Positions 1-55,704 of a stretch of DNA of 56,111 bases are shown here, piece after piece. A model generated the notes under the pieces. That model saw only the letters and a program-made list of their open reading frames with translations, was not told the DNA's origin and ran no database searches. Made by a program: the position numbers and the translations under genes. Position 1 is the stretch's first letter; each line of letters opens with the position of its first letter. The stretch is from a virus. Taxonomy: Duplodnaviria > Caudoviricetes. The stretch is taken from positions 1 through 56,111 of IMG/VR virus record IMGVR_UViG_3300025771_000033, one strand, 5' to 3'.

Positions 1-64
1 AAACGCTAGTGCAATGCGTGAAGATGCCGTTTGGAATGCAACCAATAGTCAAATGGAGGACTAA

Positions 65-733
65 ATGTTTCACATCACGCCCAAATCAAAGAATGCCAAA
101 GTAGGCAAGATGGCGGTGACCACTAGTACTGCGACAACATGTCCCAGCGCATGTCCATTCAAAGATAATGGATGCTATGCGGAGAGTGGACCGCTGAAGC
201 TGCACTGGCTCAAAGTCACCGAAGGTGAGCGTGGCGATGATTGGTCTACATTTCTTGACAAGATCAAAGACATGCCGGAGGGTAGCAAGTGGCGACACAA
301 TCAAGCTGGCGACCTGCCGGGTGACACAAAAGACCTTGACAGCGCTAAGTGCGCTGATCTTGCCAAAGCTAATGAGGGCAAGCGTGGGTTTACATACACA
401 CACTATGACGTACTGGACAACTTCCAGAATGCCATAACTGTCAATATTATGAATCACTTAGGCTTCACTGTTAATGTGTCGGCTAATAATCTTGATCATG
501 CAGACCAGCTATGCGATCTTGACATAGCTCCGGTGGCAACTGTATTGCCGATTGAGCAGACAACCAACACTGTGACACCAAAAGGCAGGAAGGTTGTGGT
601 ATGTCCCGCCACCTACAAAGATGAAGTATCGTGTGCAGATTGTATGCTGTGCGAGAAGCGTGATCGTAAGGTTATCGTAGGCTTCCCGGCTCACGGTACA
701 AGCAAGAGGAAAGCATCAGCAATTGCCGCTTGA
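65..733 (+). CDS. Cys-rich phage protein, GP88-like (possible Fe-S/Zn binding)
   Basis: GGAGG RBS; motifs TCPSACP..GCYA, RHNQAGD, GFTYTH, CPA..CADCMLC. Confidence 0.6.
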   Translation: MFHITPKSKNAKVGKMAVTTSTATTCPSACPFKDNGCYAESGPLKLHWLKVTEGERGDDWSTFLDKIKDMPEGSKWRHNQAGDLPGDTKDLDSAKCADLAKANEGKRGFTYTHYDVLDNFQNAITVNIMNHLGFTVNVSANNLDHADQLCDLDIAPVATVLPIEQTTNTVTPKGRKVVVCPATYKDEVSCADCMLCEKRDRKVIVGFPAHGTSKRKASAIAA

Positions 734-734
734 C

Positions 735-787
735 TTAATAGGTGTTATGTAGTAGAGTATCTAACGATACTACATAACGCCTATTAA
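735..787 (+). repeat. Conserved bulged hairpin, copy A
   Basis: TTAATAGGTGTTATGTA-GTAGA-GTATC-TAAC-GATAC-TACATAACGCCTATTAA. Confidence 0.9.
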
Positions 788-822
788 TTATTCCATTATA
801 GGACTGTTTTTTGGAGATTGAC

Positions 823-1044
823 ATGAAGAAAGTTATCCACATAAACCAGCATGTTATCAAGAGTAACGCCAAGAGTGGCGAACGTGAGCCAGTGATAACC
901 GTAAAGACATACAAAGATAATAACTATGCTCACGAAGTTTATGTTGACGGACCATGTAAAATAGTATATAGTCCTGACAAGCCACTGAGTTGTGGTGCTA
1001 AAGTGTGGATCGAAACCGAAGCAGAGGTAAAGATAAATGAGTAA
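823..1044 (+). CDS. hypothetical phage protein
   Basis: GGAG RBS before ATG 823; KKVIHINQH...PLSCGAKVWIET resembles a common small phage family. Confidence 0.75.
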   Translation: MKKVIHINQHVIKSNAKSGEREPVITVKTYKDNNYAHEVYVDGPCKIVYSPDKPLSCGAKVWIETEAEVKINE

Positions 1045-1186
1045 CCATGAAAACGAAGCGATAAAAGAAGACATCTTTGATATGTGGCTGGAGCATCTGT
1101 GGCTGGATGGATGGGATAAAGACGATCTTGAAACCTACAAAGAAGCTGCACGTAGAACTGAATCAGAATGGCTGGAGATGAACTAA
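1037..1186 (+). CDS. small acidic hypothetical protein (49 aa, not in ORF track)
   Basis: MSNHENEAIKEDIF...EMN*; GAGG RBS; TAATG overlap with next gene. Confidence 0.65.
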   Translation: MSNHENEAIKEDIFDMWLEHLWLDGWDKDDLETYKEAARRTESEWLEMN

Positions 1187-1365
1187 TGAACGCACTACAC
1201 ATACACGGCGTAGAGAATATCAAAGTAAGGCAAGATAGCAGCTTTGATACCTTCACAACTGTAACCGTGACTGTTACGGATAGAGATAACAAACGCTTTG
1301 AATTACAGTTATTTACAGATAAAAACTTTGTACCTAACATGGAGGTAGAGCATGTCGATGATTGA
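1186..1365 (+). CDS. hypothetical protein
   Basis: GGAG RBS, start coupled to upstream stop. Confidence 0.65.
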   Translation: MNALHIHGVENIKVRQDSSFDTFTTVTVTVTDRDNKRFELQLFTDKNFVPNMEVEHVDD

Positions 1366-1567
1366 TTTCGTAGAGATAGAGCTTGGTGGTGACAAGTGGA
1401 AGATATCGTGGGACACTAGAACCCGTAAGAAGATTAAGACTAGAGGCGAAGAGGCTGGTCTTATGTATACGATATACTCTCTAAAAGACTTGACGCCAGC
1501 ACAGGCGTATGATATAGCTATGCTTCAACTTGAGTGGCTGAAAAAGGATCAGGTCTATGTTATCTAA
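1352..1567 (+). CDS. hypothetical protein
   Basis: GGAGG RBS, tightly packed early gene. Confidence 0.65.
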   Translation: MSMIDFVEIELGGDKWKISWDTRTRKKIKTRGEEAGLMYTIYSLKDLTPAQAYDIAMLQLEWLKKDQVYVI

Positions 1568-1739
1568 ACAAGAGTGGGACGAACTGCAACAGTTATCCTA
1601 CAATGTGATGCCACAGTGGTGGTATAATCTTGACGAGCGTGATGCTATGTATAAAGCATATGTAAAAGGACATCAGGAATGGGAGAAAAAAGAAAGCGTA
1701 AAGGTTCTGTGGGGAACTCCAAGCGTGGACATGGAGTGA
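1557..1739 (+). CDS. hypothetical protein
   Basis: Overlapping gene packing. Confidence 0.55.
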   Translation: MLSKQEWDELQQLSYNVMPQWWYNLDERDAMYKAYVKGHQEWEKKESVKVLWGTPSVDME

Positions 1740-1832
1740 AACGCAATCCCCATGCAAAGGTATTAGAGCAATACCTGTACCGCAATCGCATCCTTCCCAA
1801 TAAAAAGAAGGATGTTAAACCGGAGATAACTG

Positions 1833-2078
1833 ATGAGTAATGAAGCGAAGAAATACAACTGGTTTTATGGTGATAGTGTACAATACACTGTAGAAGAATA
1901 TATTAGTAAGATACACGAACTTATATCTAGTGCTACTAACCAAATGCAGGAATGTGATGGTGATCTATTCATGTCTGAGTATCAAAAACTTATACAGGGC
2001 GCACATAAGTTAAGCTACCTTAACGATCAAATGGGACAAGAAAAAGTAAGCCATCTTAAACTTCAACCAAAGGAATAA
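1833..2078 (+). CDS. hypothetical protein
   Basis: GGAG RBS. Confidence 0.65.
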   Translation: MSNEAKKYNWFYGDSVQYTVEEYISKIHELISSATNQMQECDGDLFMSEYQKLIQGAHKLSYLNDQMGQEKVSHLKLQPKE

Positions 2079-2080
2079 GA

Positions 2081-2617
2081 ATGAATATATTCTATCTACA
2101 TAAAAACCCAAAGACCTGTGCTGAGATGCACTGCGACAAGCATGTGGTCAAGATGATCTTGGAATATGCACAGCTACTTAGCACAGCGCATCGTGTACTG
2201 GATGGCGACGAGTGGGCAGATCGTGTAGGCTTATATAAAGCAACGCACAAGAACCATCCGTCTGCTGTGTGGGCCAGAGAGTCGGCAGGTAATTATTTCT
2301 GGTTGAATAAATTGTTTCAAGAACTATGTAAGGAGTACACCAAACGCTATGATAAAATACATGGCAGTCAAATCAGATTGGGCGACTACTTATATGTATT
2401 GCCAAGCTCTTTGAATGAAGGCTTTGAAGGCATTGAGACAGGCTTAACAGAGCCGCCGCAGTGTATGCCTGATTACTGTAAAGCAGAAGGTGATGCCGTC
2501 ATGGGGTATCGTAACTACTATATCAGAGAGAAGTCATACATGGCACATTGGAACTTTACACCGGAGCCGGTATGGTATACCATTGGCATGGCAGCAGAGG
2601 TGGCGAAGGTAGCATGA
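2081..2617 (+). CDS. pyrimidine-dimer DNA glycosylase / endonuclease V-like protein
   Basis: MNIFYL..CDKHVVKMILEYAQLLSTAH, YKATHKNHPSAVWAR, PPQCMPD, YRNYY motifs. Confidence 0.75.
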   Translation: MNIFYLHKNPKTCAEMHCDKHVVKMILEYAQLLSTAHRVLDGDEWADRVGLYKATHKNHPSAVWARESAGNYFWLNKLFQELCKEYTKRYDKIHGSQIRLGDYLYVLPSSLNEGFEGIETGLTEPPQCMPDYCKAEGDAVMGYRNYYIREKSYMAHWNFTPEPVWYTIGMAAEVAKVA

Positions 2618-2650
2618 ACGCATTGTATGATATAATAGAGGAACAAGAAT

Positions 2651-2872
2651 ATGGAAATGAAAGTGTTCGATCAGGTCTACAACGAACTAACACTGCTACA
2701 ACAGGAGGACGTGGACGACCTAAGCATAGCCGAGCAGTCCCTGATGGCGGCTATGGTTTTTACTATGACTAATGCACCGTCCGTGCTAAACGGATTGTGC
2801 TTGATTTCTAACACCTTTAATGGTATACTAGCAGATTATACATTAAAAGATATCCAACTTGGAGGAGAGTAA
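2651..2872 (+). CDS. hypothetical protein
   Basis: GAGG RBS. Confidence 0.6.
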   Translation: MEMKVFDQVYNELTLLQQEDVDDLSIAEQSLMAAMVFTMTNAPSVLNGLCLISNTFNGILADYTLKDIQLGGE

Positions 2873-2873
2873 C

Positions 2874-3092
2874 ATGAATATTCCTGCGTTTAAAGACATC
2901 GAAGATGTTCAGAAGTTTCTTCGCTATGGTGGTGATGAGTGGTGTCGCCCTATGGTAGAGGAGTATATGGAACTTATTGCCTTTGATGCAAAGCCAGAGG
3001 ACATTGATATTGAAGAACTCAATGGCTGGCTTGAGCATGAACTGGTGTCTGTGACCGACGGCTACAGGGGTTGGGGCGATGAACACTGTTGA
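2874..3092 (+). CDS. hypothetical acidic protein
   Basis: GGAGAG RBS before ATG 2874. Confidence 0.6.
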   Translation: MNIPAFKDIEDVQKFLRYGGDEWCRPMVEEYMELIAFDAKPEDIDIEELNGWLEHELVSVTDGYRGWGDEHC

Positions 3093-3240
3093 AGCAATAG
3101 AGGAGACGCTAGAGATACTGAGCCAGCTTCAACTGAATGGCTCAGTAACGATGGAAGACAGTGACAAAGTGTCACAGTGCATCCAACAACTACATCAAAT
3201 CCGTTTCAACCTAAAGATGAGAGATAATCAAAATGTTTGA
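3079..3240 (+). CDS. small hypothetical protein (53 aa, not in ORF track)
   Basis: MNTVEAIEETLEIL...QNV*; fills the gap and overlaps both neighbours. Confidence 0.55.
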   Translation: MNTVEAIEETLEILSQLQLNGSVTMEDSDKVSQCIQQLHQIRFNLKMRDNQNV

Positions 3241-4093
3241 CCATGACAAACTTAACTTTTCTGTAGAGAAGTTTGACCTGCAAGACGTACCGACTGACAT
3301 TGGTGTGGGCTTGCGTCGTGTAGATACTGGACAGACACTAGCTATTGTATCTGATAGCTACGAACCTGTACAATATCTTGATATTGTGGAGAACCTTGAA
3401 CAGTCAATCAATATGTCAGGCATTGATCTAGAGGCTGCTAAATTTGAAACCAACGTCATCAATGATGGTATGCAGCTAGAGCTTACTGCTAAGTTCTTTG
3501 CGGAGTCCACAACCATTGATGGCAGGAACGATATGGTCACGCCGCAGTTCAAGTTTCGTACCAGCCACAACAGGACATGGGCTAACAACGGGATGATGGG
3601 ATACTTTCGTTCCGCATGTTATAATACTCTGGTTGACGGCAACAAGCTGGCGTATGTCTATGGCCGTCACTCTAAGAACTTCTCTGTGCCGAGCTTTGCA
3701 GGTAAGATCAGGGCAGCATCGGACTATATCTCCAACGCTGGTATAAATAAGATGCACCGCTGGTATCAGACCCCCGTGTCCAGAGATCAGGCTATCAATT
3801 TGTTTAGCCGTACACTGGCAAAGCGTCTGGACAACGTGACCAAAGCACAGGTACCTAACAAGGTGATGCTCTCCAACCTGATGAAAACATTTGACGAGGA
3901 GAACCGTCACATTATTGGGCGTGGCAACTATGAGAAGTATGGGGAGCGTACTGAAGGCACACTCTGGACTGCATATCAGGCTGCTACGGCATGGTCTACG
4001 CACGTACCAAAAGAGAACACCAGAGTCCTGCGTGAAGATAAAGTACGGAAGATGATGGACTCAACCCACTGGAAGGAACTGGAGAATGTCTAA
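3233..4093 (+). CDS. DUF932-like phage protein
   Basis: RVDTGQTLAIVSDSYEPVQ, SHN, R..CYN, GTLWTAYQAATAWSTH motifs. Confidence 0.7.
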   Translation: MFDHDKLNFSVEKFDLQDVPTDIGVGLRRVDTGQTLAIVSDSYEPVQYLDIVENLEQSINMSGIDLEAAKFETNVINDGMQLELTAKFFAESTTIDGRNDMVTPQFKFRTSHNRTWANNGMMGYFRSACYNTLVDGNKLAYVYGRHSKNFSVPSFAGKIRAASDYISNAGINKMHRWYQTPVSRDQAINLFSRTLAKRLDNVTKAQVPNKVMLSNLMKTFDEENRHIIGRGNYEKYGERTEGTLWTAYQAATAWSTHVPKENTRVLREDKVRKMMDSTHWKELENV

Positions 4094-4229
4094 GAAATCT
4101 GACGGCAAGTACGACCCGACACTACATCGAATCAAGAAGCGTACATCAATAGGGGCGGGAAATTTATCCCGTCCCAAAAACAAACACAAGAAACTTAACT
4201 GGAAAAAGTATAGAGGACAAGGTCGATGA
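4086..4229 (+). CDS. small basic protein ending YRGQGR (47 aa, not in ORF track)
   Basis: KKRTSIG..PKNKHKK..KKYRGQGR* resembles a common marine phage small-protein family. Confidence 0.7.
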   Translation: MSKKSDGKYDPTLHRIKKRTSIGAGNLSRPKNKHKKLNWKKYRGQGR

Positions 4230-4281
4230 ACTTAGACTTGATAAGAATACTTATTGATATATTGTTCGCAGGAGTAACGTA

Positions 4282-4479
4282 ATGTCCTACATCATAACTC
4301 AATCTGAAGACGACACAGTTACTGACATAGATAACTTTGATGTTATGATAGATCAGGAGAAGGAAGAAGTATATATCTTCGATCATTATGAGGATGCTGT
4401 CGCCTATCTTATGTGTCATGGTATACGAGAATTGTCTACAGGTTTTCCCTTCAATATAAAGATAGAGAAGTTACAATGA
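4282..4479 (+). CDS. hypothetical protein
   Basis: AGGAG RBS. Confidence 0.65.
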   Translation: MSYIITQSEDDTVTDIDNFDVMIDQEKEEVYIFDHYEDAVAYLMCHGIRELSTGFPFNIKIEKLQ

Positions 4480-4958
4480 AGTACATTGGTATTTTTCTAC
4501 TAGCTACCTTATTAGTAACTCTTAAAAGTGTAACTGTAAAAGCTGATGAACTATCATGTCTCGCAGAAGCAGTTTATTTTGAGGCACGTTCAGAACCGTT
4601 TGTTGCGCAGCTTGCGGTAGCTAATGTTATCCTTGCACGAGTAGAGTCGCATCGTTATCCAGATAACATCTGTGATGTAGTACATCAAGGAAAGAAGTGG
4701 AAAGGTAAACTTGTACGAAACAAATGTCAGTTCTCCTACTGGTGTGACGGTAAGCCGGAAACCATAGCCAATGTTGATGCTTATCGAGAGTCGGTCAGCG
4801 CAGCAGAGCTTGCTCTAAAAGGTGCTATTCTGAGTCAGACGGGAGGTGCTACTCATTACCATGCCGCCTACGTTACCCCTTATTGGGCAACCGATGAGGA
4901 CTTCATGGTGCTAGGGCAGGTTGGTAGTCACATCTTTTATCTTGACACTCGCAATTAA
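4476..4958 (+). CDS. cell wall hydrolase, SleB/Hydrolase_2 family, with N-terminal signal or TM segment
   Basis: CLAEAVYFEARSE, VANVILARV, CQFSYWCDG, GATHYHA, HIFY. Confidence 0.9.
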   Translation: MKYIGIFLLATLLVTLKSVTVKADELSCLAEAVYFEARSEPFVAQLAVANVILARVESHRYPDNICDVVHQGKKWKGKLVRNKCQFSYWCDGKPETIANVDAYRESVSAAELALKGAILSQTGGATHYHAAYVTPYWATDEDFMVLGQVGSHIFYLDTRN

Positions 4959-4970
4959 CAGGAGTATAAT
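4942..4970 (+). promoter_or_regulatory. sigma70-type promoter
   Basis: TTGACA-N17-TATAAT exact consensus. Confidence 0.7.
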
Positions 4971-5153
4971 ATGTCTGACAAACAGCTACAGTCCGCTTGG
5001 GAGACTCTAAACACCCATGTTAAACAACTGAAAGGTAGGGTAAGAGAACAGGAAAATACAATTAAACAATTAAGAGAAGAGTTAGCAAAAATAAAACAAA
5101 CAGAGGCAAATACCACATGGGTAGAACACGATGACAAAGGTGTACGACTTTGA
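4971..5153 (+). CDS. coiled-coil hypothetical protein
   Basis: AGGAG RBS; heptad pattern. Confidence 0.65.
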   Translation: MSDKQLQSAWETLNTHVKQLKGRVREQENTIKQLREELAKIKQTEANTTWVEHDDKGVRL

Positions 5154-5301
5154 TTGGCACCGACTACAGAAAGAAGATGTTCTAAGAAAAAGTCTTGGAT
5201 ATTCTGTAGAAGTCTGGCAGCTAATGAAAGAGTCAGGCTATAATGTTAATAGTGTTGAAGACAGGAACCAATTTTTCAAAGACCTAGAGGATTTAGACTG
5301 A
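5131..5301 (+). CDS. small hypothetical protein (56 aa, not in ORF track)
   Basis: MTKVYDFDWHRL...DLD*; TGATG coupling to next gene. Confidence 0.6.
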   Translation: MTKVYDFDWHRLQKEDVLRKSLGYSVEVWQLMKESGYNVNSVEDRNQFFKDLEDLD

Positions 5302-5486
5302 TGAGCAGAAACCTTTGGCAGAAAGAACGAAAAGAATTGTTTCGTTCACTGGTGGGACAGTACAAGTCCGAAGGCTATAACGACAAAGAAGCAAAGAGGC
5401 TGGCCCGACTAGAGGCTGACGAGATTATGGACGACAAAGAAAGTTTCATAGAAAATATCTGGGAGGAAGCCTACGATGACAGTTGA
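5301..5486 (+). CDS. hypothetical protein
   Basis: GAGG RBS, coupled start. Confidence 0.65.
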   Translation: MSRNLWQKERKELFRSLVGQYKSEGYNDKEAKRLARLEADEIMDDKESFIENIWEEAYDDS

Positions 5487-6108
5487 ACTGATTGATCACA
5501 TGGGTAGTGATCTATCTGTGGTTAACGCAGCAAGAGTTAGCTTCAATAAGGAGAGCAAGGAACTGTCAGACGGAGACACTAAACTAATACAGTATCTAGC
5601 AAAGCATAATCACTGGACACCCTTTGGTCATGCCTCCGCACAGTTCAGGATTAAAGCTCCTGTCTTTGTAGCACGTCAGTTGATGAAGCATCAGGTAGGT
5701 CTGGTCTGGAACGAGGTCAGCCGCCGCTACATTAAGACAGAGCCAGAGTTCTGGAAGCCTGACTACTGGCGGCAAGCGTCCGACGATATCAAGCAGGGTT
5801 CGCTCAGAAAGAGAGTGGCCTCGCAGTCTGTGATGGATCATATGTTCAGTGATGCGGAACGCCACTGTGCCGATGCTTACAAAGCTATGATTGACTCCGG
5901 TGTATGTGCAGAACAAGCCAGAGCAATACTACCACAAAGTCTATTGACAGAGTGGTACTGGTCTGGTACACTTATGGCTTTCGCTAGAGTTGTTAAGTTA
6001 CGCAACGCCAAAGATGCACAGCTAGAGACGAGAGAGATTGCAAAGGAGATTGATACTCACATGAATGAACTTTTTCCTGTATCATGGAGTGCGTTATGTG
6101 GAAGCTAA
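5476..6108 (+). CDS. thyX: flavin-dependent thymidylate synthase
   Basis: VNAARVS, HWTPF, APVFVARQLMKH, NEVSRRY, EQARAILP, AQLETRE. Confidence 0.95.
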   Translation: MTVELIDHMGSDLSVVNAARVSFNKESKELSDGDTKLIQYLAKHNHWTPFGHASAQFRIKAPVFVARQLMKHQVGLVWNEVSRRYIKTEPEFWKPDYWRQASDDIKQGSLRKRVASQSVMDHMFSDAERHCADAYKAMIDSGVCAEQARAILPQSLLTEWYWSGTLMAFARVVKLRNAKDAQLETREIAKEIDTHMNELFPVSWSALCGS

Positions 6109-6254
6109 TATTGAAGAAGGAGTTTGGTGATGTGGTTGTCAAGAATTTTCGCACGAAAAAAGAAGCCGAGGAAGAGCTTCGAAACAGAGACAACCTCACT
6201 CAACATCTTACCCACAAATCTGCAAGAGGAGTATATGAAATCCAAAAAGGATAA
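6096..6254 (+). CDS. small hypothetical protein (52 aa, not in ORF track)
   Basis: GGAG RBS; MWKLILKKEF...QKG*. Confidence 0.5.
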   Translation: MWKLILKKEFGDVVVKNFRTKKEAEEELRNRDNLTQHLTHKSARGVYEIQKG

Positions 6255-6258
6255 AGAG

Positions 6259-6447
6259 ATGGAAGTTCTTATTGAAGTATATAAACCAAAGACACGAGGT
6301 AAAATGCAAACATCTTTCAAAGCAGCATGGCGTAAGCTTGAAAGAGTTGACCAGATTGAAACGCTGATATCACTGGAGAAGGAGTTAGCAGCAGAGCGAA
6401 GAGAAATATCTTTGGAACTGTATCAAAATAGCAAAGGTAAATGGTAA
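6259..6447 (+). CDS. hypothetical protein
   Basis: C-terminal part of track ORF 6124..6447, start moved to ATG 6259. Confidence 0.5.
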   Translation: MEVLIEVYKPKTRGKMQTSFKAAWRKLERVDQIETLISLEKELAAERREISLELYQNSKGKW

Positions 6448-6449
6448 AC

Positions 6450-6501
6450 TTAATTGAGTCTTAGTAGTGAAGTTTCTACGAAACTACTAAGGCTCAATTA
6501 A
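6450..6501 (+). repeat. Conserved bulged hairpin, copy B
   Basis: TTAATTGAGTCTTAGTA-GTGAA-GTTTC-TAC-GAAAC-TACTAAGGCTCAATTAA. Confidence 0.9.
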
Positions 6502-6514
6502 TTTGGAGAAGTTT

Positions 6515-8140
6515 ATGGAAAACAAAACGCACCAACCCTGCCCCGACTGCGGATCATCCGACGCACTAGCGTACTACGATTGGGGTACAAAATGTTTTAG
6601 CTGCGATGAAGCGAAACCCTACAAGAATGGAAACCAAATGCAACACACACCTGCACCCAAAAAGATTGTTAACATGAACCAGCAAGCTAAGAACTTTATT
6701 GTTTCTGATATTCCTGATCGTAAGATTACTTTAGATACCTGTAAGCGTTATGGTGTGTCGGTTGTCAAGGACGGCAACATGGTCACCGAACACATGTACA
6801 AGTATTACGACAAGAACAGCAACCACATCGGAACTAAGTTCCGCCGCACCAGCGACAAGCAGTTCTGGTCGGAGGGCAACTTGTCAGATGCAGGACTGTT
6901 TGGTCAGAACATCTTTGGTCAGGCAGGTAAGTTCATTACCGTATGTGAGGGCGAGCTTGATGCGATGAGTGCGTATCAGCTTCTTGGGTCGAAGTGGCCG
7001 GTCGTATCTATCAAGAATGGCGCACAGTCTGCGCTGAAGAACTGCCGTCAGGCGCTGGACTATCTCAATAAGTTTGATACGATTGTTCTGTGCTTTGACA
7101 ACGACCAGCAAGGTAAAGATGCACAGCAGGCTGTGGCAAAGCTGTTCGAGCCTAACAAGTGTAAGATCATGAGCCTCGAACTGAAGGATGCTAACGAGTA
7201 TCTGAAGGTCGGTCAGCGTGAGAAGTTCGTGCAGACATGGTGGAACGCACAGACCTACACACCAGCAGGTATTATCAACCTTGCTGATCTTGGTCGCAGC
7301 TTGTACGAAGAGACGCACAATCAGACCTGTCCTTACCCGTGGTCAAAGCTGAACGAGAAGACGTATGGTATGCGTACCGGAGAGCTTATCACGTTTACTT
7401 CTGGCGCTGGTATGGGCAAGTCCAGTATCATGCGTGAGCTAATGTATCACCTGATGCACAATACTGAGGAGAACATTGGCGTCCTTGCAATGGAGGAGAA
7501 CACTAAGCAGACTGCGTTCAATCTCATGAGTGTGGAAGCTAATGCACGTCTGTACATCAAGGAGATTCGTGAACAGTACACACAAGAACAGCTTGATGAG
7601 TGGCAAGAAAAGACGCTCGGCACCGGCAGGTTCTATGTGTTCGATCACTTCGGAAGCATGGACAACGATGAGATTCTCAACCGTGTACGGTACATGGCAA
7701 AGGCTCTCAACACCAAGTGGATTATTCTTGACCATCTTTCTATTCTTGTGTCCGGTCAGGAAGACAACGGCGACGAGCGTAAGTCTATTGATATTCTCAT
7801 GACCAAGCTACGCTCTCTGGTTGAGGAGACGCAGATTGGTTTGCTTCTTGTCTCACACCTACGTCGCCCCGCCGGTGATCGTGGGCATGAGGATGGTCGT
7901 GAGATTACTCTGTCACATCTACGTGGGTCTGCATCCATTGCACATCTGTCTGATGCTGTGCTTGCTCTGGAGCGTAACCAACAGGCAGAGGATGAGGTAG
8001 AGGCAAACACTACTACGATTCGCATTCTCAAGAACAGGTATACTGGTGAGACGGGCATTGCTTGCTACTTGCATTACGACTCCAACACTGGTAGAATGAC
8101 GCAGGTAGATAACCCATTCGTGGAGGACGAAGATGAATAA
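6515..8140 (+). CDS. T7 gp4-like DNA primase-helicase
   Basis: Zn finger CPDC..CFSC, TOPRIM EGELDA and FDND, Walker A GAGMGKS, ILDHL, LRGS, KNRYTG. Confidence 0.97.
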   Translation: MENKTHQPCPDCGSSDALAYYDWGTKCFSCDEAKPYKNGNQMQHTPAPKKIVNMNQQAKNFIVSDIPDRKITLDTCKRYGVSVVKDGNMVTEHMYKYYDKNSNHIGTKFRRTSDKQFWSEGNLSDAGLFGQNIFGQAGKFITVCEGELDAMSAYQLLGSKWPVVSIKNGAQSALKNCRQALDYLNKFDTIVLCFDNDQQGKDAQQAVAKLFEPNKCKIMSLELKDANEYLKVGQREKFVQTWWNAQTYTPAGIINLADLGRSLYEETHNQTCPYPWSKLNEKTYGMRTGELITFTSGAGMGKSSIMRELMYHLMHNTEENIGVLAMEENTKQTAFNLMSVEANARLYIKEIREQYTQEQLDEWQEKTLGTGRFYVFDHFGSMDNDEILNRVRYMAKALNTKWIILDHLSILVSGQEDNGDERKSIDILMTKLRSLVEETQIGLLLVSHLRRPAGDRGHEDGREITLSHLRGSASIAHLSDAVLALERNQQAEDEVEANTTTIRILKNRYTGETGIACYLHYDSNTGRMTQVDNPFVEDEDE

Positions 8141-8414
8141 ACAAGATAATCTAGAGCCACTTTGGAATAGACATAATAAAGACTACGGATTTGAAGAAGA
8201 GTCTTATGTTCTAACAATCAAACTGGTAGGTACAGTTATGGGTACAGGAATATCAGAAGAACATGCTCTTTCTAAAATACAGAAAATGTTCTATTCTCAA
8301 CTAGGAGGAAAAGATATAATTGATTTGTTTACTAAACTAAATGAAAGTGAAGTAGGCATTGGATTTGAAGCGAAACACTTCCCACATGAAGATTGGATGG
8401 ACGAAGATGTCTGA
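8133..8414 (+). CDS. hypothetical protein
   Basis: GGAGG RBS, overlaps neighbours. Confidence 0.6.
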   Translation: MNKQDNLEPLWNRHNKDYGFEEESYVLTIKLVGTVMGTGISEEHALSKIQKMFYSQLGGKDIIDLFTKLNESEVGIGFEAKHFPHEDWMDEDV

Positions 8415-11134: not shown

Positions 11135-11995
11135 ATGAAAACAATAGACACTCTCGTTGAAGATATATATAGTCTGTTCTCACTTGATCCTATAGATATG
11201 GACGAGAGTGAAGTAGACAAACACATCGACACCTTTGGTGAAATGCTGAAGGTTCACATTAAAGACTTTATGTATGACACGCCCAAAGATCGTGGTAATC
11301 TAAGGCTCTCTGCTATTGGAAAGCCAGACCGCCGCATCTGGTACGATGTCAATCAGCCGCTTGATCAGGCCGACCTAACTCCAGCCACACGTATCAAGTT
11401 TCTATATGGTTATATTCTTGAAGAGCTTTTGCTTCTATGTTCTACCATATCAGGACACGAGGTGAAAGATCAGCAGAAAGAAGTGGAGGTAGAAGGTGTT
11501 ACCGGACATCAAGATTGTATTATTGATGGCGTCGTTGTGGATTGTAAGTCTGCTAGTGGTATTGGCTTCGACAAGTTTAAGCACAACAAGTTAGCAGAGG
11601 ACGATCCCTTTGGTTATATCGCACAGATATCTGCTTACGCAGAAGCTAATGGTATTAATGAGGCGGCGTTTCTTGCGATCAACAAATCAACAGGAGAGAT
11701 ATGTCTTACCAAACTACATCATATGGATATGATCAATGCCAAGCAGCGAATCTCTCACCTTAAAGGATTGGTTTCACAGGATTCTCTACCTGATAGGTGC
11801 TACTCCGATCTACCTGATGGTAAGTCTGGCAACCGTAAGCTTCCTGTTAGTTGTGTTTATTGTGGCTATAAGCGAGACTGTTGGGCTGATGCTAATCAAG
11901 GTAAAGGTATTCGTGTCTTCAAGTATGCACATGGTCGCAGGTATCTTACCAACGTGGCTAAAGAACCTGATGTGGAGGAAGTGACTGACTGGTGA
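11135..11995 (+). CDS. PD-(D/E)XK (Cas4/RecB-like) exonuclease
   Basis: LRLSAIGKP, GHQD, VVDCKS, YIAQISAY, CVYCGYKRDC. Confidence 0.75.
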   Translation: MKTIDTLVEDIYSLFSLDPIDMDESEVDKHIDTFGEMLKVHIKDFMYDTPKDRGNLRLSAIGKPDRRIWYDVNQPLDQADLTPATRIKFLYGYILEELLLLCSTISGHEVKDQQKEVEVEGVTGHQDCIIDGVVVDCKSASGIGFDKFKHNKLAEDDPFGYIAQISAYAEANGINEAAFLAINKSTGEICLTKLHHMDMINAKQRISHLKGLVSQDSLPDRCYSDLPDGKSGNRKLPVSCVYCGYKRDCWADANQGKGIRVFKYAHGRRYLTNVAKEPDVEEVTDW

Positions 11996-12387
11996 CACAT
12001 TGGGAGTATCATAAAGAGTTTGACACAAAGAATAACTTTGGCTTTGTTTATCGAATAACCAATAAGAAAACTAAGAAAGCTTACATTGGTTGTAAACAAT
12101 ATTATGTAACACGTAAAGGTAAGAAAGTAGAATCTAATTGGAGAATATATACAGGCTCTAGTAAATACCTTAACGAAGACATCAAGAAGATTGGCAAGAA
12201 ACATTTCCGGTTTCAAGTTGTCGGTGAGTATAAAAACAAAAGAAGTCTTCGGTACTATGAGTGTTATTTTCAAATGATCTACAAAGTTCTTACAGCAAAG
12301 TTAGAAGGTACGGATGAACCCGCCTACTACAATAACTATGTGGGCGGGAAATTTTATCGCCCCGTTCAGGAGGCTGAAGATGAGTGA
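11992..12387 (+). CDS. GIY-YIG endonuclease
   Basis: GFVYRITN...YIGCKQ, YTGSS, YYNNYVGG. Confidence 0.8.
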   Translation: MTHWEYHKEFDTKNNFGFVYRITNKKTKKAYIGCKQYYVTRKGKKVESNWRIYTGSSKYLNEDIKKIGKKHFRFQVVGEYKNKRSLRYYECYFQMIYKVLTAKLEGTDEPAYYNNYVGGKFYRPVQEAEDE

Positions 12388-15349: not shown

Positions 15350-16120
15350 ATGAGAAAGTCACCCAACACAGTTTATATTGGCTACGATCCCAGAGAAGAA
15401 GTAGCTTATGAAGTATTGAAGTTTACTATTGAACGTATTGCAGTTGACAACGTAACTATTAAACCAATTCGTAAAGATGTTGTAGAACGTATGGGTCTGT
15501 ATAATCGTAAGCACACCGTTAAAGATGGGCAGATGATTGATGACATAGATGGCAAACCGTTCTCTACAGACTTTAGCTTCACACGTTTTCTTGTCCCTGC
15601 CTTGAACATGTATCAGGGATGGGCTTTGTATATGGATTGCGACATGTATCTTCGCACAGACATCAATGAATTGTTTGAAGAATACAACATGGATTACTAT
15701 CCATTATACTGCGTTAAGCATCAATATGAACCTACCGAAGAATATAAGATGGATGGACGAAAGCAGGAAACTTATCGGCGCAAGAACTGGTCAAGCCTTA
15801 TTCTTTGGAACTGCGGTCACGAGCTTAACAAACGACTAACGCCTCTGGAGGTAAACACCCAGACAGGTTCTTGGCTTCATGGTTTTCAGTGGCTTCCAGA
15901 TAAAGAGGGCGACATTGGCAGTATGCATCAGGAGTGGAACTGGCTTGATGGTCATTCTCCAGCGGAAGTAGAAGCAAAGAATGTTCACTTCACTACAGGA
16001 GGGCCGTGGTTTAGACAGTGGAAATGTGCAAGAGACATTGACGGAAGATACGCTTCCGAGTGGAATGGAGACTACACCTACCTTGCCGGAAAAGGAATTA
16101 TCAAACCCTATGACATATAA
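15350..16120 (+). CDS. glycosyltransferase, GT-A fold (GT8-like)
   Basis: YIGYDPRE, STDFSFTRFLVP, DCD (DxD), RKNWSS, HFTTGGPW; AGGAG RBS before ATG 15350. Confidence 0.85.
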   Translation: MRKSPNTVYIGYDPREEVAYEVLKFTIERIAVDNVTIKPIRKDVVERMGLYNRKHTVKDGQMIDDIDGKPFSTDFSFTRFLVPALNMYQGWALYMDCDMYLRTDINELFEEYNMDYYPLYCVKHQYEPTEEYKMDGRKQETYRRKNWSSLILWNCGHELNKRLTPLEVNTQTGSWLHGFQWLPDKEGDIGSMHQEWNWLDGHSPAEVEAKNVHFTTGGPWFRQWKCARDIDGRYASEWNGDYTYLAGKGIIKPYDI

Positions 16121-18464
16121 AATTGTAACATGCTTTGACGAGAAGAAGCTCAAGAAAAATGGCTTCAAACTTCTGAATGAGTTCAAAGAAAACTGGCAAC
16201 CTAATATAGAGTTTCACTGTTACTATTATAATCTAGATATTAGTAACTATTCTCTGCCCAAAGCGAAGAACATTCACTACCACAATCTTAACGACGTTCC
16301 TGAGTATGTTACGTTTGTAGAAGAGAACCCCACCCACGATGGTACTGAAGATGGTATGGTGCAGTACACAGAACTTCTGGATGCGCTGTCATCGGGGCCA
16401 GATGTTTTCGCTATTACTGAGTGTGCGTTCAACAATGAGGGTGGTTGGCTGATCTGGGTTGACCCCATGTGCGCTACAGTTAAAGACATTAGGTCTTCCA
16501 CTCTTGATCATTACTTCCCTGATCCCGTCTATAACGTAGACTTTATCTATACGCCTGAGACATCGTACATCATGGCGTTTAATCTGAAACGTCAGACTGC
16601 TGTAGATATCATGGGCGATTGGCGTGGCTCTTACATGTCAGGCGAGTTTACAAATTATCGTGAATGGACCGCTGCTTTTATTCTTAGCAGACTTGTTACT
16701 ATCTATACAGCACATGGTATGAACGTCCATGAGTTTACTGGTATAGAAAATCTAGTAGTAAACATCAATGATAAAAGTTCTATGAATGTCAGGGATAGCT
16801 CTGGTAAACGAGTGATTGAACTTTCAGAAACAGAAACCACTCCAGACATTCTTCCCGGTAGGTATAAACAGCTTGCCGACACTATTCGTTTTTATAAGCC
16901 TAGTACTATTCTGGAAACAGGGACGTGGAATGGTGGCCGTGCTATTGAGATGGCGCTTGCTGCATTTGATAGAACAGATTCAGTTCATTACATTGGCTAC
17001 GATCTGTTCGAAGATGCAACAGTAGAGACGGATAAGGAAGAGTTTAATGCCAAGCCTCACAACACAAAGAGTGCTGTTGCGAAAAGGTTTGATGAGTTCA
17101 CCCAATACATAAAGAAAGAAAAGGGTAAAGAGTTTACCTATGAGTTACATAAAGGTAATGTAAGAGATACTCTTAACTCTATCTATATTGATGAAGTAGA
17201 CTTTGCTTTGATAGGCAGTGGAAACAGTATCGAAACTGTCCAACACGAATATAATATTCTAAAGAATGTTCCCGTTGTCATGGGTGATCACTTCTTTACG
17301 AAGGACGACGAGGACAAAATCCCTGAAGAAAAATATCAGGGTATGAAAAATCTTTTTGATTCTATCGCTACCAAAAAGATTAATGAAGAGAAGACAACAG
17401 AAGATGGCTGGACATCGTTCGATGAAAAGTCTACAGTGCGTAAGTATGTTCTGCCTTCAGATGACAGAGTACTTGGTGGTGGTCGCACACACCTTGTTGT
17501 CTTCCTTCATGACGAAAAGCTAGAGGATATTCCAGCGGAACTGAAACAGGTTCCTATTGTTGTACATCCCAGAGACTCTGTGCCGAAGGAATATATTCGA
17601 AGTAATATTAAAAGAAACCTTCAGCACATTGATAAAGACAGGTGGGTACGGAAGCATCCTGCACACAGAGGCCGAGCGGCTATCGTATCTGCTGGTCCGT
17701 ATTTGGACTATGCGAAGCTTGAAGAGTTTCTTGCATTTAATCCTGACTGTAAAGTTCTTACAGTTAAACATGCATTGCCGGGTCTAATTAAGAATGGCAT
17801 AACTCCATGGGGTTGTATTGTTCTTGATCCCAGACCTATCACTGGTAAAAGCACACACAACATCACACGCAAAGACTTGTTCAAAGACTTTGATCCTGAC
17901 ATGAACTTCTTTGTTGCGTCTATGACAGACCCATCTGTTACAGAGCATCTCATAGAACGTAATGCAAAAATCTGGGGATGGCATGCCTTCACTGATTCTC
18001 TACGTGAAGAGGATGAGCAGGGTAAGGCTATTGAAAACCAGCAGGTTAAACTAAGCAATGAGCTTGGTATTCCACAGGGAGCTACGCTTATTACTGGTGG
18101 TACCTGTGCTGCTATGCGTGGCATTGGTATGCTGCACACTATGGGCTTCAGAGATATACATCTCTTTGGTTTTGATTGTTGTAGAGACGAGCCAACTGAC
18201 GAAGAAAAGACTGAGACTACTGGTGATCTGGAAGGCGGAGAAGTTCCTAAGCCAAAGTATATACAAGTTAATGTAAAGGAAAAAACATACTGGACTACAG
18301 GAGAGTTGCTTGCTATGGCGCAAGACTGTGAGAAAGTATTTAATGATCCCGGTCTTGAGGGTGTACTCTGCTATCATGGTAAAGACACTATGGTTGCAGA
18401 CTTGTGGGACATCAAAGTAGAACAGGAAACAAGGCCACAGTTTAAAGGATATTACGATGACTAA
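16110..18464 (+). CDS. multidomain protein: GT-like domain + class I SAM-MTase-like domain + Maf/DUF115 (MptE-like) domain
   Basis: LIWVD; ILETGTWNGG..YIGYDLFE; AIVSAGPYL, IVLDPRP, GGTCAAMR..GFRDIHLFGFDC. Confidence 0.7.
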   Translation: MTYKIVTCFDEKKLKKNGFKLLNEFKENWQPNIEFHCYYYNLDISNYSLPKAKNIHYHNLNDVPEYVTFVEENPTHDGTEDGMVQYTELLDALSSGPDVFAITECAFNNEGGWLIWVDPMCATVKDIRSSTLDHYFPDPVYNVDFIYTPETSYIMAFNLKRQTAVDIMGDWRGSYMSGEFTNYREWTAAFILSRLVTIYTAHGMNVHEFTGIENLVVNINDKSSMNVRDSSGKRVIELSETETTPDILPGRYKQLADTIRFYKPSTILETGTWNGGRAIEMALAAFDRTDSVHYIGYDLFEDATVETDKEEFNAKPHNTKSAVAKRFDEFTQYIKKEKGKEFTYELHKGNVRDTLNSIYIDEVDFALIGSGNSIETVQHEYNILKNVPVVMGDHFFTKDDEDKIPEEKYQGMKNLFDSIATKKINEEKTTEDGWTSFDEKSTVRKYVLPSDDRVLGGGRTHLVVFLHDEKLEDIPAELKQVPIVVHPRDSVPKEYIRSNIKRNLQHIDKDRWVRKHPAHRGRAAIVSAGPYLDYAKLEEFLAFNPDCKVLTVKHALPGLIKNGITPWGCIVLDPRPITGKSTHNITRKDLFKDFDPDMNFFVASMTDPSVTEHLIERNAKIWGWHAFTDSLREEDEQGKAIENQQVKLSNELGIPQGATLITGGTCAAMRGIGMLHTMGFRDIHLFGFDCCRDEPTDEEKTETTGDLEGGEVPKPKYIQVNVKEKTYWTTGELLAMAQDCEKVFNDPGLEGVLCYHGKDTMVADLWDIKVEQETRPQFKGYYDD

Positions 18465-19146
18465 TATTAATGTAGAGAACACAAATAGTAGGCATAATCC
18501 TTCTGATGATTATGGTAATCTTATTAAGATGTATGAACAAAAGCATGATCAGGCAGCAGGTATGTTTAATGGTCGTAGCCTTTTAAAGTTTGTTGACATA
18601 ATCAAGGCTTATCTTGAACAGCATAAGTGTAAATCTATTCTTGATTATGGTTGTGGCAAGGGTATTCTTTATAGCGAAGACTACCATACATTAACTAACG
18701 AAATTGACTGCCCTCTTCCTGAGTACTGGAGCCTTGACGAGCATGAACTTTTTGATCCCGGCTACGAGAAGTATAATAAACTTCCTATCCACAAAAAAGA
18801 TGCAGTAATTTGTACAGATGTTCTTGAACATGTAGCAGAGGAAGACTTGTCTTGGGTGGTAGATGAAATATTTTCTTATGCAAAGAAGATGGTCTTTCTA
18901 AACATAGCTTGCTTTGAAGCAGTGAAGACGCTACCAGATGGACGCAATGCTCATATCTCAATCTTCTCTCCAGAGGATTGGATTCAGATGCTGGCTGAGA
19001 AAAGCAGAAACTTTAAACACTTGACTATCTATATGTTTGCTGATACAATGGTAACAGAAAATCCAAAGACCTATCAAACGCAAGGCTATCGCATTGATCA
19101 GTATCCACGTATAATTAAAATGAAAAATGTAAAGGAGTCAGAATAA
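18457..19146 (+). CDS. class I SAM-dependent methyltransferase
   Basis: ILDYGCGKG, VICTDVLEHV, NAHIS. Confidence 0.85.
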   Translation: MTNINVENTNSRHNPSDDYGNLIKMYEQKHDQAAGMFNGRSLLKFVDIIKAYLEQHKCKSILDYGCGKGILYSEDYHTLTNEIDCPLPEYWSLDEHELFDPGYEKYNKLPIHKKDAVICTDVLEHVAEEDLSWVVDEIFSYAKKMVFLNIACFEAVKTLPDGRNAHISIFSPEDWIQMLAEKSRNFKHLTIYMFADTMVTENPKTYQTQGYRIDQYPRIIKMKNVKESE

Positions 19147-25733: not shown

Positions 25734-25735
25734 CT

Positions 25736-27829: not shown

Positions 27830-27839
27830 TATGCTTTCC

Positions 27840-28466
27840 TTATCCTATATTTGATTCTAGAGCCTGTTGCAACGAGGCAAGGCCATTAATTTGATTCGGC
27901 TGTTTGGTTGTACCAAATGCTTCTTGCCGTATATCTTTAATTGTTTTGTCTAGTACTTTTGCACCAGCATCAGAACTTCCATTTCCAAGAGCAGCTACTG
28001 TAGCAGCATCTACAATATACTCATCAGGGCTAACAGCAAGTGTAGCAACCTGTTGTCCTTCAGCCCTATCTACTATTGGCATGTAAACATTATCCTCCAT
28101 ACCATGACCTTCGCCGGGAACCATACCAGAGTATCCACTATACACCATACCACCTTCTTTGGCCTGACGCATCTTCATCATAGCAAGATTATCTAACTGT
28201 GACTCAGTTCTCAATGCATTTTGAATTGCTTTTACTCGTGCCATTCTTTGAGGGTCAGAAGGCATTGGCTGTGCTGGAGCGGGAGACATTGGAGCCATTG
28301 GAGGTGGTTGCATCTGCCCCATCTCTCTTTCCATAGCATCTTGATTAGATGTACTTAGTACTCTTTTAGCATTGTCTACTTGTTCACGAGTAATCCCAGC
28401 CCTTGCAGCTAAGTTATCAAGCGCACTCAATCTAACAGTTTCTTTGATATCTTGATTTATATTCAT
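27840..28466 (-). CDS. virion-associated protein
   Basis: GG.V.G.G.G.ED...SPDEYIV.A..V..LGNGSSDAGA motif block. Confidence 0.6.
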   Translation of the reverse strand: MNINQDIKETVRLSALDNLAARAGITREQVDNAKRVLSTSNQDAMEREMGQMQPPPMAPMSPAPAQPMPSDPQRMARVKAIQNALRTESQLDNLAMMKMRQAKEGGMVYSGYSGMVPGEGHGMEDNVYMPIVDRAEGQQVATLAVSPDEYIVDAATVAALGNGSSDAGAKVLDKTIKDIRQEAFGTTKQPNQINGLASLQQALESNIG

Positions 28467-53305: not shown

Positions 53306-53311
53306 GTTATT

Positions 53312-53340: not shown

Positions 53341-53341
53341 A

Positions 53342-55139: not shown

Positions 55140-55192
55140 CTAATTAATCCCTTCATAGTAGTAACGAAGTGTTACTATGAAGGGTTAATTAG
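55140..55192 (+). repeat. Conserved bulged hairpin, copy C
   Basis: CTAATTAATCCCTTCATA-GTA-GTAAC-GAAGT-GTTAC-TATGAAGGGTTAATTAG. Confidence 0.85.
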
Positions 55193-55397
55193 TTATTATA
55201 TTACAAACCCTCCCTGCCAAATTCATCCAGAGGATGCTTTGTAGTCAGCTTTCTACTACTTCGTAGTAATTCCAGAAACCTAGTTAAGCCCTTGACAAAG
55301 CGTAGCTTTTCCATGCTATGCAGTCTTTGCAAGACTGTCATGCAGGTGATGATATGCCAGAGGGCTTGACGAGGCTTGACAACCCCAAATGATGAGG

Positions 55398-55449
55398 TTA
55401 ATTAATCCCTATAGAACGAACTCTATGAGTTCTATAGGGTATTAATTAA
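55398..55449 (+). repeat. Conserved bulged hairpin, copy D
   Basis: TTAATTAATCCCTATA-GAAC-GAACTC-TAT-GAGTTC-TATAGGGTATTAATTAA. Confidence 0.85.
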
Positions 55450-55465
55450 ACCAAGGAGATTGACC

Positions 55466-55642: not shown

Positions 55643-55652
55643 ATCGGCATAC

Positions 55653-55704
55653 CTAATTAGCCCTTTATAGTAGAGTATCTACGATACTATAAAGGGTTAA
55701 TTAG
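55653..55704 (+). repeat. Conserved bulged hairpin, copy E
   Basis: CTAATTAGCCCTTTATA-GTAGA-GTATC-TAC-GATAC-TATAAAGGGTTAATTAG. Confidence 0.9.

What the first reader, a model, noticed from the sequence alone, without database searches (positions are those of the whole stretch)
735..787. Family of five dispersed, structure-conserved bulged hairpins (735-787, 6450-6501, 55140-55192, 55398-55449, 55653-55704)
Seen: each ~52-nt intergenic element has a 16-17 bp outer stem, a 3-5 nt bulge always on the left arm, a 5-6 bp inner stem (G...C) and a 3-5 nt loop. The right arm is always 17 nt, starting TA and ending ATTAR. Stem sequences differ widely between copies but pairing is kept (covariation). 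In copies A, B and E the single stem mismatch is G.U on the + strand and would be A.C on the - strand, which favours a + strand RNA structure. The bulge repeats the first bases of the inner stem (GTA/GTA, GT/GT, GAAC/GAAC), so two pairing registers are possible. All copies lie in or just before the early/replication arm, and A, B and D sit shortly upstream of an RBS, including that of the primase-helicase. There is no U tract. Inference: either a set of RNA processing or regulatory sites (by analogy with T7 RNase III sites), a binding site for a phage protein, extruded-hairpin promoter/origin elements, or a miniature mobile element with TTAA/CTAA ends.
Basis: partly seen in the sequence, partly recalled or inferred. 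Interest (0 to 1): 0.85.

Follow-up and report, generated by a model that had tools for sequence, protein, structure and literature searches.

The report
Bulged hairpins between phage early genes
A family of strand-specific 52-nt hairpins, conserved in shape but not in sequence, sits between the early genes of an uncultured aquatic phage lineage; it most likely marks where the early messenger RNA is cut or stabilised, as in phage T7 but in a new form.

Summary
All five elements fold as described: a 17-nt right arm, a 5' bulge, a 5-6 bp inner stem and a 3-5 nt loop. RNA free energies are -25 to -29 kcal/mol, z -7 to -8.7. They are the only matches to their covariance model in the 56-kb window.

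The family is lineage-wide. An architecture scan found 160 places in 70 related viral loci and none in shuffled sequence. Copies are never in mixed orientation. They always lie on the sense strand of the early/replication arm (207 of 207 gene matches).

Eighty-four distinct copies show strong covariation: 86% of cells paired against 35-42% in slid controls, and 0 of 500 shuffles reach the observed score. Stem mismatches are G.U (21) and never A.C (0). The functional form is therefore a single strand, not a duplex palindrome.

Orthologous copies keep their position while their stems are rewritten. There is no Rfam family, no copy in cultured phages or 185,579 species genomes, and no phage RNA polymerase.

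Best reading, confidence 0.4: intercistronic RNA processing or stability sites of the host-transcribed early mRNA, analogous to T7 RNase III sites. Cleavage is inferred, not shown. Rivals are a lineage-specific protein-binding RNA and an extruded DNA hairpin.

The parts
735..787 (+). Hairpin A. Left arm 735-751, bulge GTAGA 752-756, inner stem 757-761 with 766-770, loop TAAC, right arm 771-787. It follows the stop of the DUF7227 gene (65-733) and precedes the gene at 823-1044.
   Evidence: Orthologues in L011, L089, L133, L097 and L128 carry compensatory stem changes: GT..AC becomes AC..GT.
6450..6501 (+). Hairpin B. Left arm 6450-6466, bulge GTGAA, inner stem GTTTC/GAAAC, loop TAC, right arm 6485-6501. 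It lies between the stop at 6445-6447 and the GGAG at 6505-6508 of the primase-helicase gene.
   Evidence: An orthologous hairpin with a wholly different stem is present in L020 and L021, whose primase-helicase is 76% identical.
55140..55192 (+). Hairpin C. Apex class 2: bulge GTA, inner stem GTAAC/GTTAC, loop GAAGT. It lies between the terminase start and the early control region.
   Evidence: It is present in all 8 aligned relatives, with a compensatory change in the base: CTAATTA..TAATTAG against CCAATTA..TAATTGG.
55366..55397 (+). Conserved promoter-like box just before hairpin D: TTGACG, then CTTGACAA, then a TGAYGA box.
   Evidence: TTGACA lies 13-16 nt before the stem in 9 of 12 distinct copies at this position and 27 nt before it in the other 3.
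55398..55449 (+). Hairpin D. Bulge GAAC, inner stem GAACTC/GAGTTC, loop TAT. It lies directly before the Shine-Dalgarno sequence of the first early gene (ATG at 55466).
55653..55704 (+). Hairpin E. Bulge GTAGA, inner stem GTATC/GATAC, loop TAC. It begins 10 nt after the stop of the first early gene.

Best explanation
The elements are cis-acting RNA hairpins on the sense strand of the early and middle polycistronic transcripts, which this phage must make with host RNA polymerase. Each fills an intercistronic gap: stop codon, 0-10 nt, hairpin, 0-12 nt, Shine-Dalgarno sequence. With 17 + 5 bp, or 20 bp in the second register, each offers about two turns of duplex broken by a 5' bulge and a mid-stem non-Watson-Crick pair.

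The most likely action is endonucleolytic processing by host RNase III, as at the five early R sites of T7. This would leave the upstream message with a hairpin-capped 3' end and free the ribosome site of the next cistron. Uncut hairpins would still act as barriers to exonucleases and as translational insulators.

Shown: the structure, the strand, the placement, the conservation and the absence of a phage RNA polymerase. Inferred: that they are transcribed as part of mRNA, that RNase III is the agent, and the consequences for stability and translation.
For: Covariation. Across 84 distinct copies 86% of cells are paired, against 35-42% when partners are slid. There are 356 double-change cells against 81-134. 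None of 500 shuffles reaches the observed score. Both helices covary.

Strand specificity. Among 75 copies picked by apex motif alone, the first 16 stem positions hold 21 G.U or U.G pairs and 0 A.C or C.A pairs. They hold 41 purine-purine and 3 pyrimidine-pyrimidine mismatches. The bulge is always on the 5' arm.

Orientation. None of 70 loci or 85 loci has mixed orientation. Copies lie on the same strand as early-arm genes in 207 of 207 matches and opposite structural genes in 73 of 73, over 49 loci.

Placement, for 85 distinct copies. Fifty-four lie within 30 nt after the stop of an ORF of 40 aa or more. Sixty-four have an ORF start within 60 nt downstream. Sixty-one have a Shine-Dalgarno-like tetramer within 20 nt. 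Only 8 lie inside a same-strand ORF.

Other points. Position is conserved over terminase identities of 69-91% while stems change. No U tract follows, and true terminators exist elsewhere. No RNA polymerase was found by Pfam or PHROGs in the window, nor by a Pfam RNA_pol search in 5 near-complete relatives, so the host enzyme makes long early transcripts. T7 R1.1 is likewise a roughly 60-nt irregular hairpin with an asymmetric internal loop between early genes (passages of PMC6121014).
Against: No RNA ends or cleavage were seen. The only RNA runs found are low-depth contigs, and none crosses A or B.

The apex (GUAGA GUAUC UURC GAUAC) and the base (YUAAUUA) are sequence-conserved across the lineage. 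RNase III alone would not require that.

Copy C lies upstream of the conserved TTGACA boxes, so its sense transcription needs a further promoter that I could not establish.

Copy D starts 13-16 nt after a conserved TTGACA in 9 of 12 variants. A -10 element would then fall in its left arm, and transcripts from that promoter would lack part of the hairpin.

No copy was found in the late arm, whereas T7 also has late RNase III sites (recalled, not looked up).
Confidence: 0.4

Rival explanations
1. The hairpins are RNA binding sites for a lineage-specific phage protein. It would read the conserved apex and base, and the hairpin may switch between two registers. The protein would regulate the early genes, for example by translational repression, timed shut-off or antitermination.
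For: Apex and base are sequence-conserved while the middle stem is free to vary. Both pairing registers are kept. Register 1 inner stem is 96% paired. The three register 2 pairs hold in 82 of 84, 73 of 84 and 58 of 76 cells. Several apex classes covary as units. Middle stems are somewhat more alike within a genome: 4.31 against 5.16 differences out of 8, with 0 of 2000 permutations as low.
Against: No RNA-binding protein was recognised among the early-arm ORFs scanned. The first early protein is acidic. No partner could be tested.
Confidence: 0.2
2. The elements act as DNA. Supercoiling extrudes a strand-specific hairpin or cruciform that serves as an early promoter, a promoter modulator or a replication start. 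This is the logic of N4 early promoters, but here the reader would be the host polymerase or an unrecognised enzyme.
For: The left arm is 17 nt, A+T-rich at its base, ends in TA and is followed by G. Copy D sits at a fixed short distance from a conserved TTGACA. Copy C flanks the control region on the other side. Copies cluster in the first 3-5 kb of the early arm. In N4 promoters the conserved and variable stem bases behave in the same way (passages of PMC4496689). G.T is also the best-tolerated DNA mismatch (established knowledge).
Against: No T7-like or N4-like polymerase was found. The Pfam RNA_pol search was negative in the window and 5 relatives, although its control genomes were also silent. 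The 1332-aa ejection-type protein has homologues carrying SLT (3 of 58) and LysM (2 of 58), and its profile matches no polymerase in the PDB. The stems are 22 bp and A+T-rich, unlike N4's 5-7 bp stem around a G+C-rich heptamer. Most copies abut a stop codon and a Shine-Dalgarno sequence rather than a promoter.
Confidence: 0.15
3. The elements are miniature mobile palindromes, or cassette-boundary recombination sites that shuffle small early genes. The comparison is with REP or MITE elements, or with the promoter-early stem-loops of T4-type phages (recalled).
For: Gene content differs on either side of hairpin A in L011 and L133. Copies within a genome are somewhat more alike. The ends are TTAA-like.
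Against: Copies are positionally orthologous across relatives with diverged, compensated stems. Other synteny breaks in the same comparisons carry no hairpin. All 16 apex-motif matches in species genomes lack the hairpin context and are no more than chance would give. No transposase was seen in the Pfam scans of the ORFs tested. A 5' bulge kept on one strand is not what palindrome-copying processes would produce.
Confidence: 0.07
4. The elements are factor-dependent terminators or pause sites for host RNA polymerase between early genes.
For: They are stable hairpins at gene ends. E is followed by GTTTTC.
Against: Four of the five have no T tract. The stems are A+T-rich. The same genome uses canonical G+C-rich terminators with T tracts. 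B sits inside an operon directly before an essential replication gene.
Confidence: 0.05

Closest known systems
T7 early RNase III processing sites (R0.3-R1.3; model substrate R1.1)
   Same: Irregular hairpin of 50-60 nt with two helical segments. It lies between cistrons of a host-transcribed early operon, in the sense orientation, with no U tract and several copies per genome.
   Different: Here the interruption is a 3-5 nt bulge on the 5' strand only, plus a mid-stem non-Watson-Crick pair. R1.1 has a 4/5-nt internal loop. Apex and base are sequence-conserved. No copies lie in the late arm. There is no sequence similarity. Cleavage is untested.
N4 virion-polymerase hairpin promoters
   Same: Strand-specific hairpins at the start of the early region. 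Some stem bases are conserved while others need only pair.
   Different: N4 has a 5-7 bp stem and a 3-nt loop around a G+C-rich heptamer, read by a roughly 3500-aa injected polymerase. Here the stems are 22 bp and A+T-rich, and no polymerase was found.
Bacterial REP/BIME extragenic palindromes
   Same: Intercistronic imperfect palindromes that can protect upstream mRNA from 3' exonucleases (established knowledge, recalled).
   Different: REPs are near-identical chromosomal repeats mobilised by RAYT transposases and occur in both orientations. These are phage-borne, co-oriented and divergent in sequence, and they are absent from the species genomes searched.
Promoter-early stem-loops (PeSL) of T4-type phages (recalled, not looked up)
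   Same: Repeated stem-loop cassettes that flank small early ORFs in a plastic region.
   Different: A PeSL pairs a stem-loop with an early promoter at each copy. Here only the copy at position D has an adjacent TTGACA box.
Rfam families
   Same: Below threshold there is only generic resemblance to long hairpins: miRNA precursors and an S. pyogenes antisense RNA, at 14-28 bits against cut-offs of 47-140.
   Different: No match reaches gathering score in the whole window.

Membership tests
T7-type RNase III processing site | Irregular hairpin giving about two turns of duplex, interrupted by an asymmetric loop or bulge | tested here: met
   The helix is 17 bp + bulge + 5-6 bp, or 20 bp in register 2. 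The interruption differs in form from that of R1.1.
T7-type RNase III processing site | Lies between cistrons of a polycistronic transcript, in the sense orientation | tested here: met
   Placement and orientation are met. The transcript itself was not observed.
T7-type RNase III processing site | Cut by RNase III at a defined site in vivo and in vitro | not testable with these tools
   No raw RNA reads were available. Only contigs were found.
N4-type hairpin promoter | 5-7 bp stem and 3-nt loop around a G+C-rich heptamer centred at -11 | tested here: not met
   Stems are 22 bp with about 30% G+C, and loops are 3-5 nt. The N4 features come from passages of PMC4496689.
N4-type hairpin promoter | A phage-encoded or injected T7-like RNA polymerase | tested here: not met
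   Pfam and PHROGs scans were negative for 8 large late ORFs and for the early ORFs tested. PF00940 was absent from the window and 5 relatives, though the controls were silent. A profile of the 1332-aa protein against the PDB found no polymerase. A very divergent enzyme is not excluded.
Intrinsic terminator | G+C-rich stem followed by a U tract | tested here: not met
REP/MITE-like mobile palindrome | Near-identical dispersed copies with presence/absence polymorphism, target duplications and a cognate transposase | tested here: not met
   Copies are divergent and positionally orthologous. None occurs in 185,579 species genomes. No transposase domain appeared in the ORFs scanned. Target duplications were not searched for systematically.
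Any Rfam 15 family | Score at or above the gathering threshold | tested here: not met
   There were 0 matches in 56111 bases on both strands. The best sub-threshold match was 28.3 bits against a cut-off of 47.

The most novel reading that the evidence does not exclude
The hairpins are two-state, strand-specific nucleic-acid switches that a factor unique to this lineage reads. One form of this reading is supercoil-extruded DNA hairpins that gate or constitute early promoters without any N4-type virion polymerase. In that case the A+T-rich base of copy D would double as the -10 region of the conserved TTGACA promoter. The other form is an RNA operator set through which one early protein controls the whole early arm.
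Probability: 0.15. Interest if true: 0.85.

Novelty: new variant of a known kind. Interest (0 to 1): 0.6.

Why it matters
This is a well-supported new structured element with enough natural covariation to define an RNA family: 84 distinct copies and two covarying helices. It occurs in an uncultured aquatic podophage lineage whose nearest cultured relatives are the abundant HTVC023P-type pelagiphages, at about 40% terminase identity.

If the hairpins are RNase III-type sites, they show that T7-style early-mRNA processing exists in polymerase-less phages, with a different substrate design. They would also be ready-made insulator parts. If instead a phage factor or DNA extrusion reads them, they expose an unknown layer of early-gene control.

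They also give a sequence-independent marker for the early arm and strand of such genomes in metagenomes.

Tried and rejected
Phage RNA polymerase. Pfam and PHROGs scans of large ORFs were negative. A PF00940 search of the window and five near-complete relatives found nothing, but the tool's control genomes were also silent, so the negative is weak. For the 1332-aa late protein, phmmer and a 22-sequence profile against the PDB found nothing relevant. The atlas pointed to polyvalent-protein domains. Homologues carry SLT or LysM domains. I read it as an ejection protein. No structure was predicted.

RNA evidence. One search found 4 RNA libraries, kept as contigs only. Laid on 1-8200 they give scattered 150-330 nt pieces at depth 2-7, and none bridges A or B. 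This says nothing either way.

Cultured relatives. The R2 model found no copy in HTVC027P, HTVC023P, HTVC115P, DSL-LC04 or MQM1. The same model found copies in all 5 near-complete uncultured relatives. A blastn of hairpin E against 50,697 phage records gave only chance-level partial hits, with E about 6 and none covering 80% of the query. A blastn of 54900-56111 found nothing.

Sigma-70 promoter reading of every copy. The scanner's hits inside A and E are not conserved in orthologues, so I rejected it.

K-turn, CRISPR-repeat mimic and self-cleaving ribozyme readings were considered by eye and by Rfam and dropped.

Literature. Searches found no description of these hairpins. Term look-ups in PMC9599517 and PMC12753301 gave 0 occurrences of hairpin or stem-loop. 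This is not proof that none exists.

Rows dropped before counts. Three architecture-scan hits without the family's base and apex were dropped (L133:7133-7186, L143:1355-1411, L093:7410-7466). One near-duplicate (L005) was left out of alignment A2, leaving 84 of 88. Two of 77 apex-motif segments without a stem were excluded.

Full report
WHAT THE WINDOW IS. The 56,111-base window is a whole IMG/VR virus record, estimated 95% complete. Plus-strand genes run from about 55,460, across the record ends, to 20,550. They are small early ORFs, DUF7227, DUF932, a cell-wall hydrolase, ThyX, a T7-type primase-helicase, family A DNA polymerase, a Gp2.5-like SSB, a Cas4-like exonuclease, ribonucleotide reductase, a holin and the small terminase. 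Minus-strand genes from 54,988 down to 20,672 are large terminase, portal, virion and fibre proteins, ending with a 208/697/1332-aa trio. The nearest cultured phages are distant: primase-helicase 45-48% identical to Pelagibacter phage HTVC115P and others, and terminase about 40% identical to HTVC027P and HTVC023P. No RNA polymerase was found, so the host enzyme must transcribe the genome.

Energies are -25 to -29 kcal/mol and z-scores -7 to -8.7, and the + strand always folds better than the - strand. They are among the nine most stable 60-nt windows of the + strand. They are the only matches to their own covariance model in the window. Canonical G+C-rich terminators with T tracts occur elsewhere, so these are a separate class. 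Rfam has no family for them.

THE FAMILY IS LINEAGE-WIDE. Relatives were fetched through the primase-helicase, giving 61 loci. They carry the orthologue of B at 93-99% protein identity. At 76% identity (L020, L021) they carry a hairpin of the same architecture with a completely different stem. A relative at 71% identity has eight copies. The conserved apex pattern retrieved 68 more viral stretches. Of these, 65 encode relatives of window proteins, and 84 of 86 distinct motif occurrences sit in the full hairpin. An architecture-only scan required the inner stem, a 5' bulge, 8 paired bases and a basal stem of at least 5. It gave 318 parses, collapsing to 160 places in 70 loci, against 0 in shuffled sequence. 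A sequence profile found 209 places in 85 loci. Five near-complete relatives have 3 to 8 copies each, all on one strand and mostly within about 3-5 kb at the start of the early arm. The motif is absent, in hairpin form, from 185,579 species genomes: 16 bare matches, none with a stem. It is also absent from cultured phages.

ANATOMY OF THE FAMILY.
- A basal stem of 7-8 bp, A+T-rich, consensus YTAATTA paired with TAATTAR. It covaries where it departs from the consensus.
- A helix defect 8-10 pairs below the bulge. It is an A.G pair in 23 of 75 copies, otherwise U.G, G.U or A.A, or a one-base bulge on either side.
- A hypervariable, Watson-Crick-paired middle stem of 8-9 bp, usually closing with T-A and A-T.
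- A 3-5 nt bulge on the 5' strand only: GTAGA, GTGAA, GTGGA, GTA, GAAC or ACTTA.
- A 5-6 bp inner stem: GTATC, GTTTC, GTTAC, GTAAC, GAACTC or GCTTTC, each with its complement.
- A 3-5 nt loop.
The first bases of the bulge repeat those of the inner stem, so the 3' strand can pair in two registers. Both registers are kept across the family.

COVARIATION AND STRAND. On a MAFFT alignment of 84 distinct copies, not fitted to any structure, 86% of cells pair, against 35-42% with slid partners. There are 356 cells with changes on both sides, against 81-134. Twenty-one of 22 pairs show double changes. None of 500 shuffles reaches the observed score. Among 75 copies chosen by apex alone, stem mismatches in the first 16 positions are 21 G.U or U.G and 0 A.C or C.A. 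There are 41 purine-purine and 3 pyrimidine-pyrimidine mismatches. A duplex palindrome or a symmetric cruciform would show no such bias. The selected form is therefore a single strand of + polarity. The copies lie on the strand of the early-arm genes in every case (207 of 207 and 73 of 73 gene matches in 49 loci).

PLACEMENT. Of 85 distinct copies, 54 lie within 30 nt after an ORF stop, and the TAA is often part of the stem base. Sixty-four lie within 60 nt before an ORF start. Sixty-one have a Shine-Dalgarno-like tetramer within 20 nt. Eight lie inside a same-strand ORF. Maps of 22 loci show a conserved order: terminase (divergent), hairpin, first early gene, hairpin, (genes, hairpins), DUF7227, hairpin, and further on, hairpin, primase-helicase. 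Orthologous copies show compensatory changes. A reads GT..AC in the window and AC..GT in L011. The base of C reads T..A against C..G. The apex class at position D differs between relatives.

HOW IT MOST LIKELY WORKS. The hairpin is sense-strand and intercistronic, about two turns long, has no U tract, and lies in an operon made by host polymerase. That is what T7 uses for RNase III processing of its early RNA. R1.1 is a 60-nt hairpin with an asymmetric internal loop between genes 1.0 and 1.1 (passages of PMC6121014). I take this as the best explanation at confidence 0.4. RNase III cleavage and its effects on stability and translation are inferred.

The points against are as follows.
- Apex and base are sequence-conserved.
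- Copy C lies upstream of the conserved TTGACA boxes.
- Copy D starts 13-16 nt after a conserved TTGACA in 9 of 12 variants and 27 nt after it in 3. A -10 element would then lie in its left arm.
- No copies lie in the late arm.
- There is no RNA-end evidence.

RIVALS.
- A lineage-specific protein that reads apex and base, possibly using the two registers as a switch (0.2).
- An extruded DNA hairpin acting as a promoter, modulator or origin by N4-like logic (0.15). The 17-nt A+T-based arm ending in TA and followed by G, and the tie of D to a TTGACA box, keep this alive. In N4, conserved and merely-paired stem bases coexist in the same way (PMC4496689). But no polymerase is found, and the hairpins differ in size and composition.
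- A mobile or recombination element (0.07). Positional orthology and absence elsewhere speak against it, although copies within a genome are slightly more alike and gene content varies beside hairpin A.
- A terminator or pause site (0.05).

NOVELTY AND VERDICT. The element is real, abundant within its lineage and strongly supported by covariation. It is not in Rfam, in the phage collections searched or in the papers I could search. In kind it is closest to phage intercistronic processing hairpins but differs in design, so I rate it a new variant of a known kind. Interest is 0.6. It is a clean new structured-RNA candidate with an open mechanism, and testable in E. coli even though the phage is uncultured.

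Noticed in passing
window 50878-53391 (- strand genes 50963-52309, 52293-52691, 52691-53305): About 2.4 kb lies between portal and terminase here. All 9 relatives that span this junction lack it and bridge it in about 150-230 nt. It encodes an HlyC-family (RTX-toxin-activating type) acyltransferase, PF02794 at E 2e-22, flanked by 448-aa and 204-aa proteins with no family.
   Followed up: partly
window 55195-55397: The early control region is conserved in 8 relatives. It holds further small hairpins: CATCC-AGA-GGATG at 55224-55236, TACTAC-TTC-GTAGTA at 55254-55268, and CAGTCTT-TGC-AAGACTG at 55321-55337, which covaries in L137. It also holds TGAYGA boxes on both sides of a conserved CTTGACAA.
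   Followed up: partly
window 55045-55098: A G+C-rich inverted repeat (GGGGGTG ... CACCCCC) encloses a (TA)n run between the terminase start and hairpin C. The 60-nt window fold is -21.9 kcal/mol. The TA run and flanks are conserved in relatives. It could be an origin, a packaging site or a late-promoter feature.
   Followed up: no
window 11992-12387 (+): A SegE-like GIY-YIG homing endonuclease gene (PF19835, E 7e-30) lies in the replication module. Only 2 of the related loci searched have a match.
   Followed up: no
window 21735-28466 (-): The late arm ends with proteins of 208, 697 and 1332 aa with no Pfam or PHROG family. Their sizes and order recall the T7 internal core proteins (recalled). 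Of 58 homologues of the largest, 3 carry SLT and 2 carry LysM.
   Followed up: partly
window 15981-18464 (+): An 827-aa protein combines an MptE-like domain (PF01973, E 2e-14) with a weak methyltransferase match. A separate methyltransferase follows at 18457-19146. This is possibly a DNA or glycan modification module.
   Followed up: no
window 55653-55704 and relatives with a TAC loop: When the loop is TAC, the apex is nearly symmetric. The bulge GTAGA can pair with TCTAC, which spans the inner stem and the loop. The minus strand can then adopt the same bulge-plus-stem layout. This applies to 4 of 160 places.
   Followed up: partly
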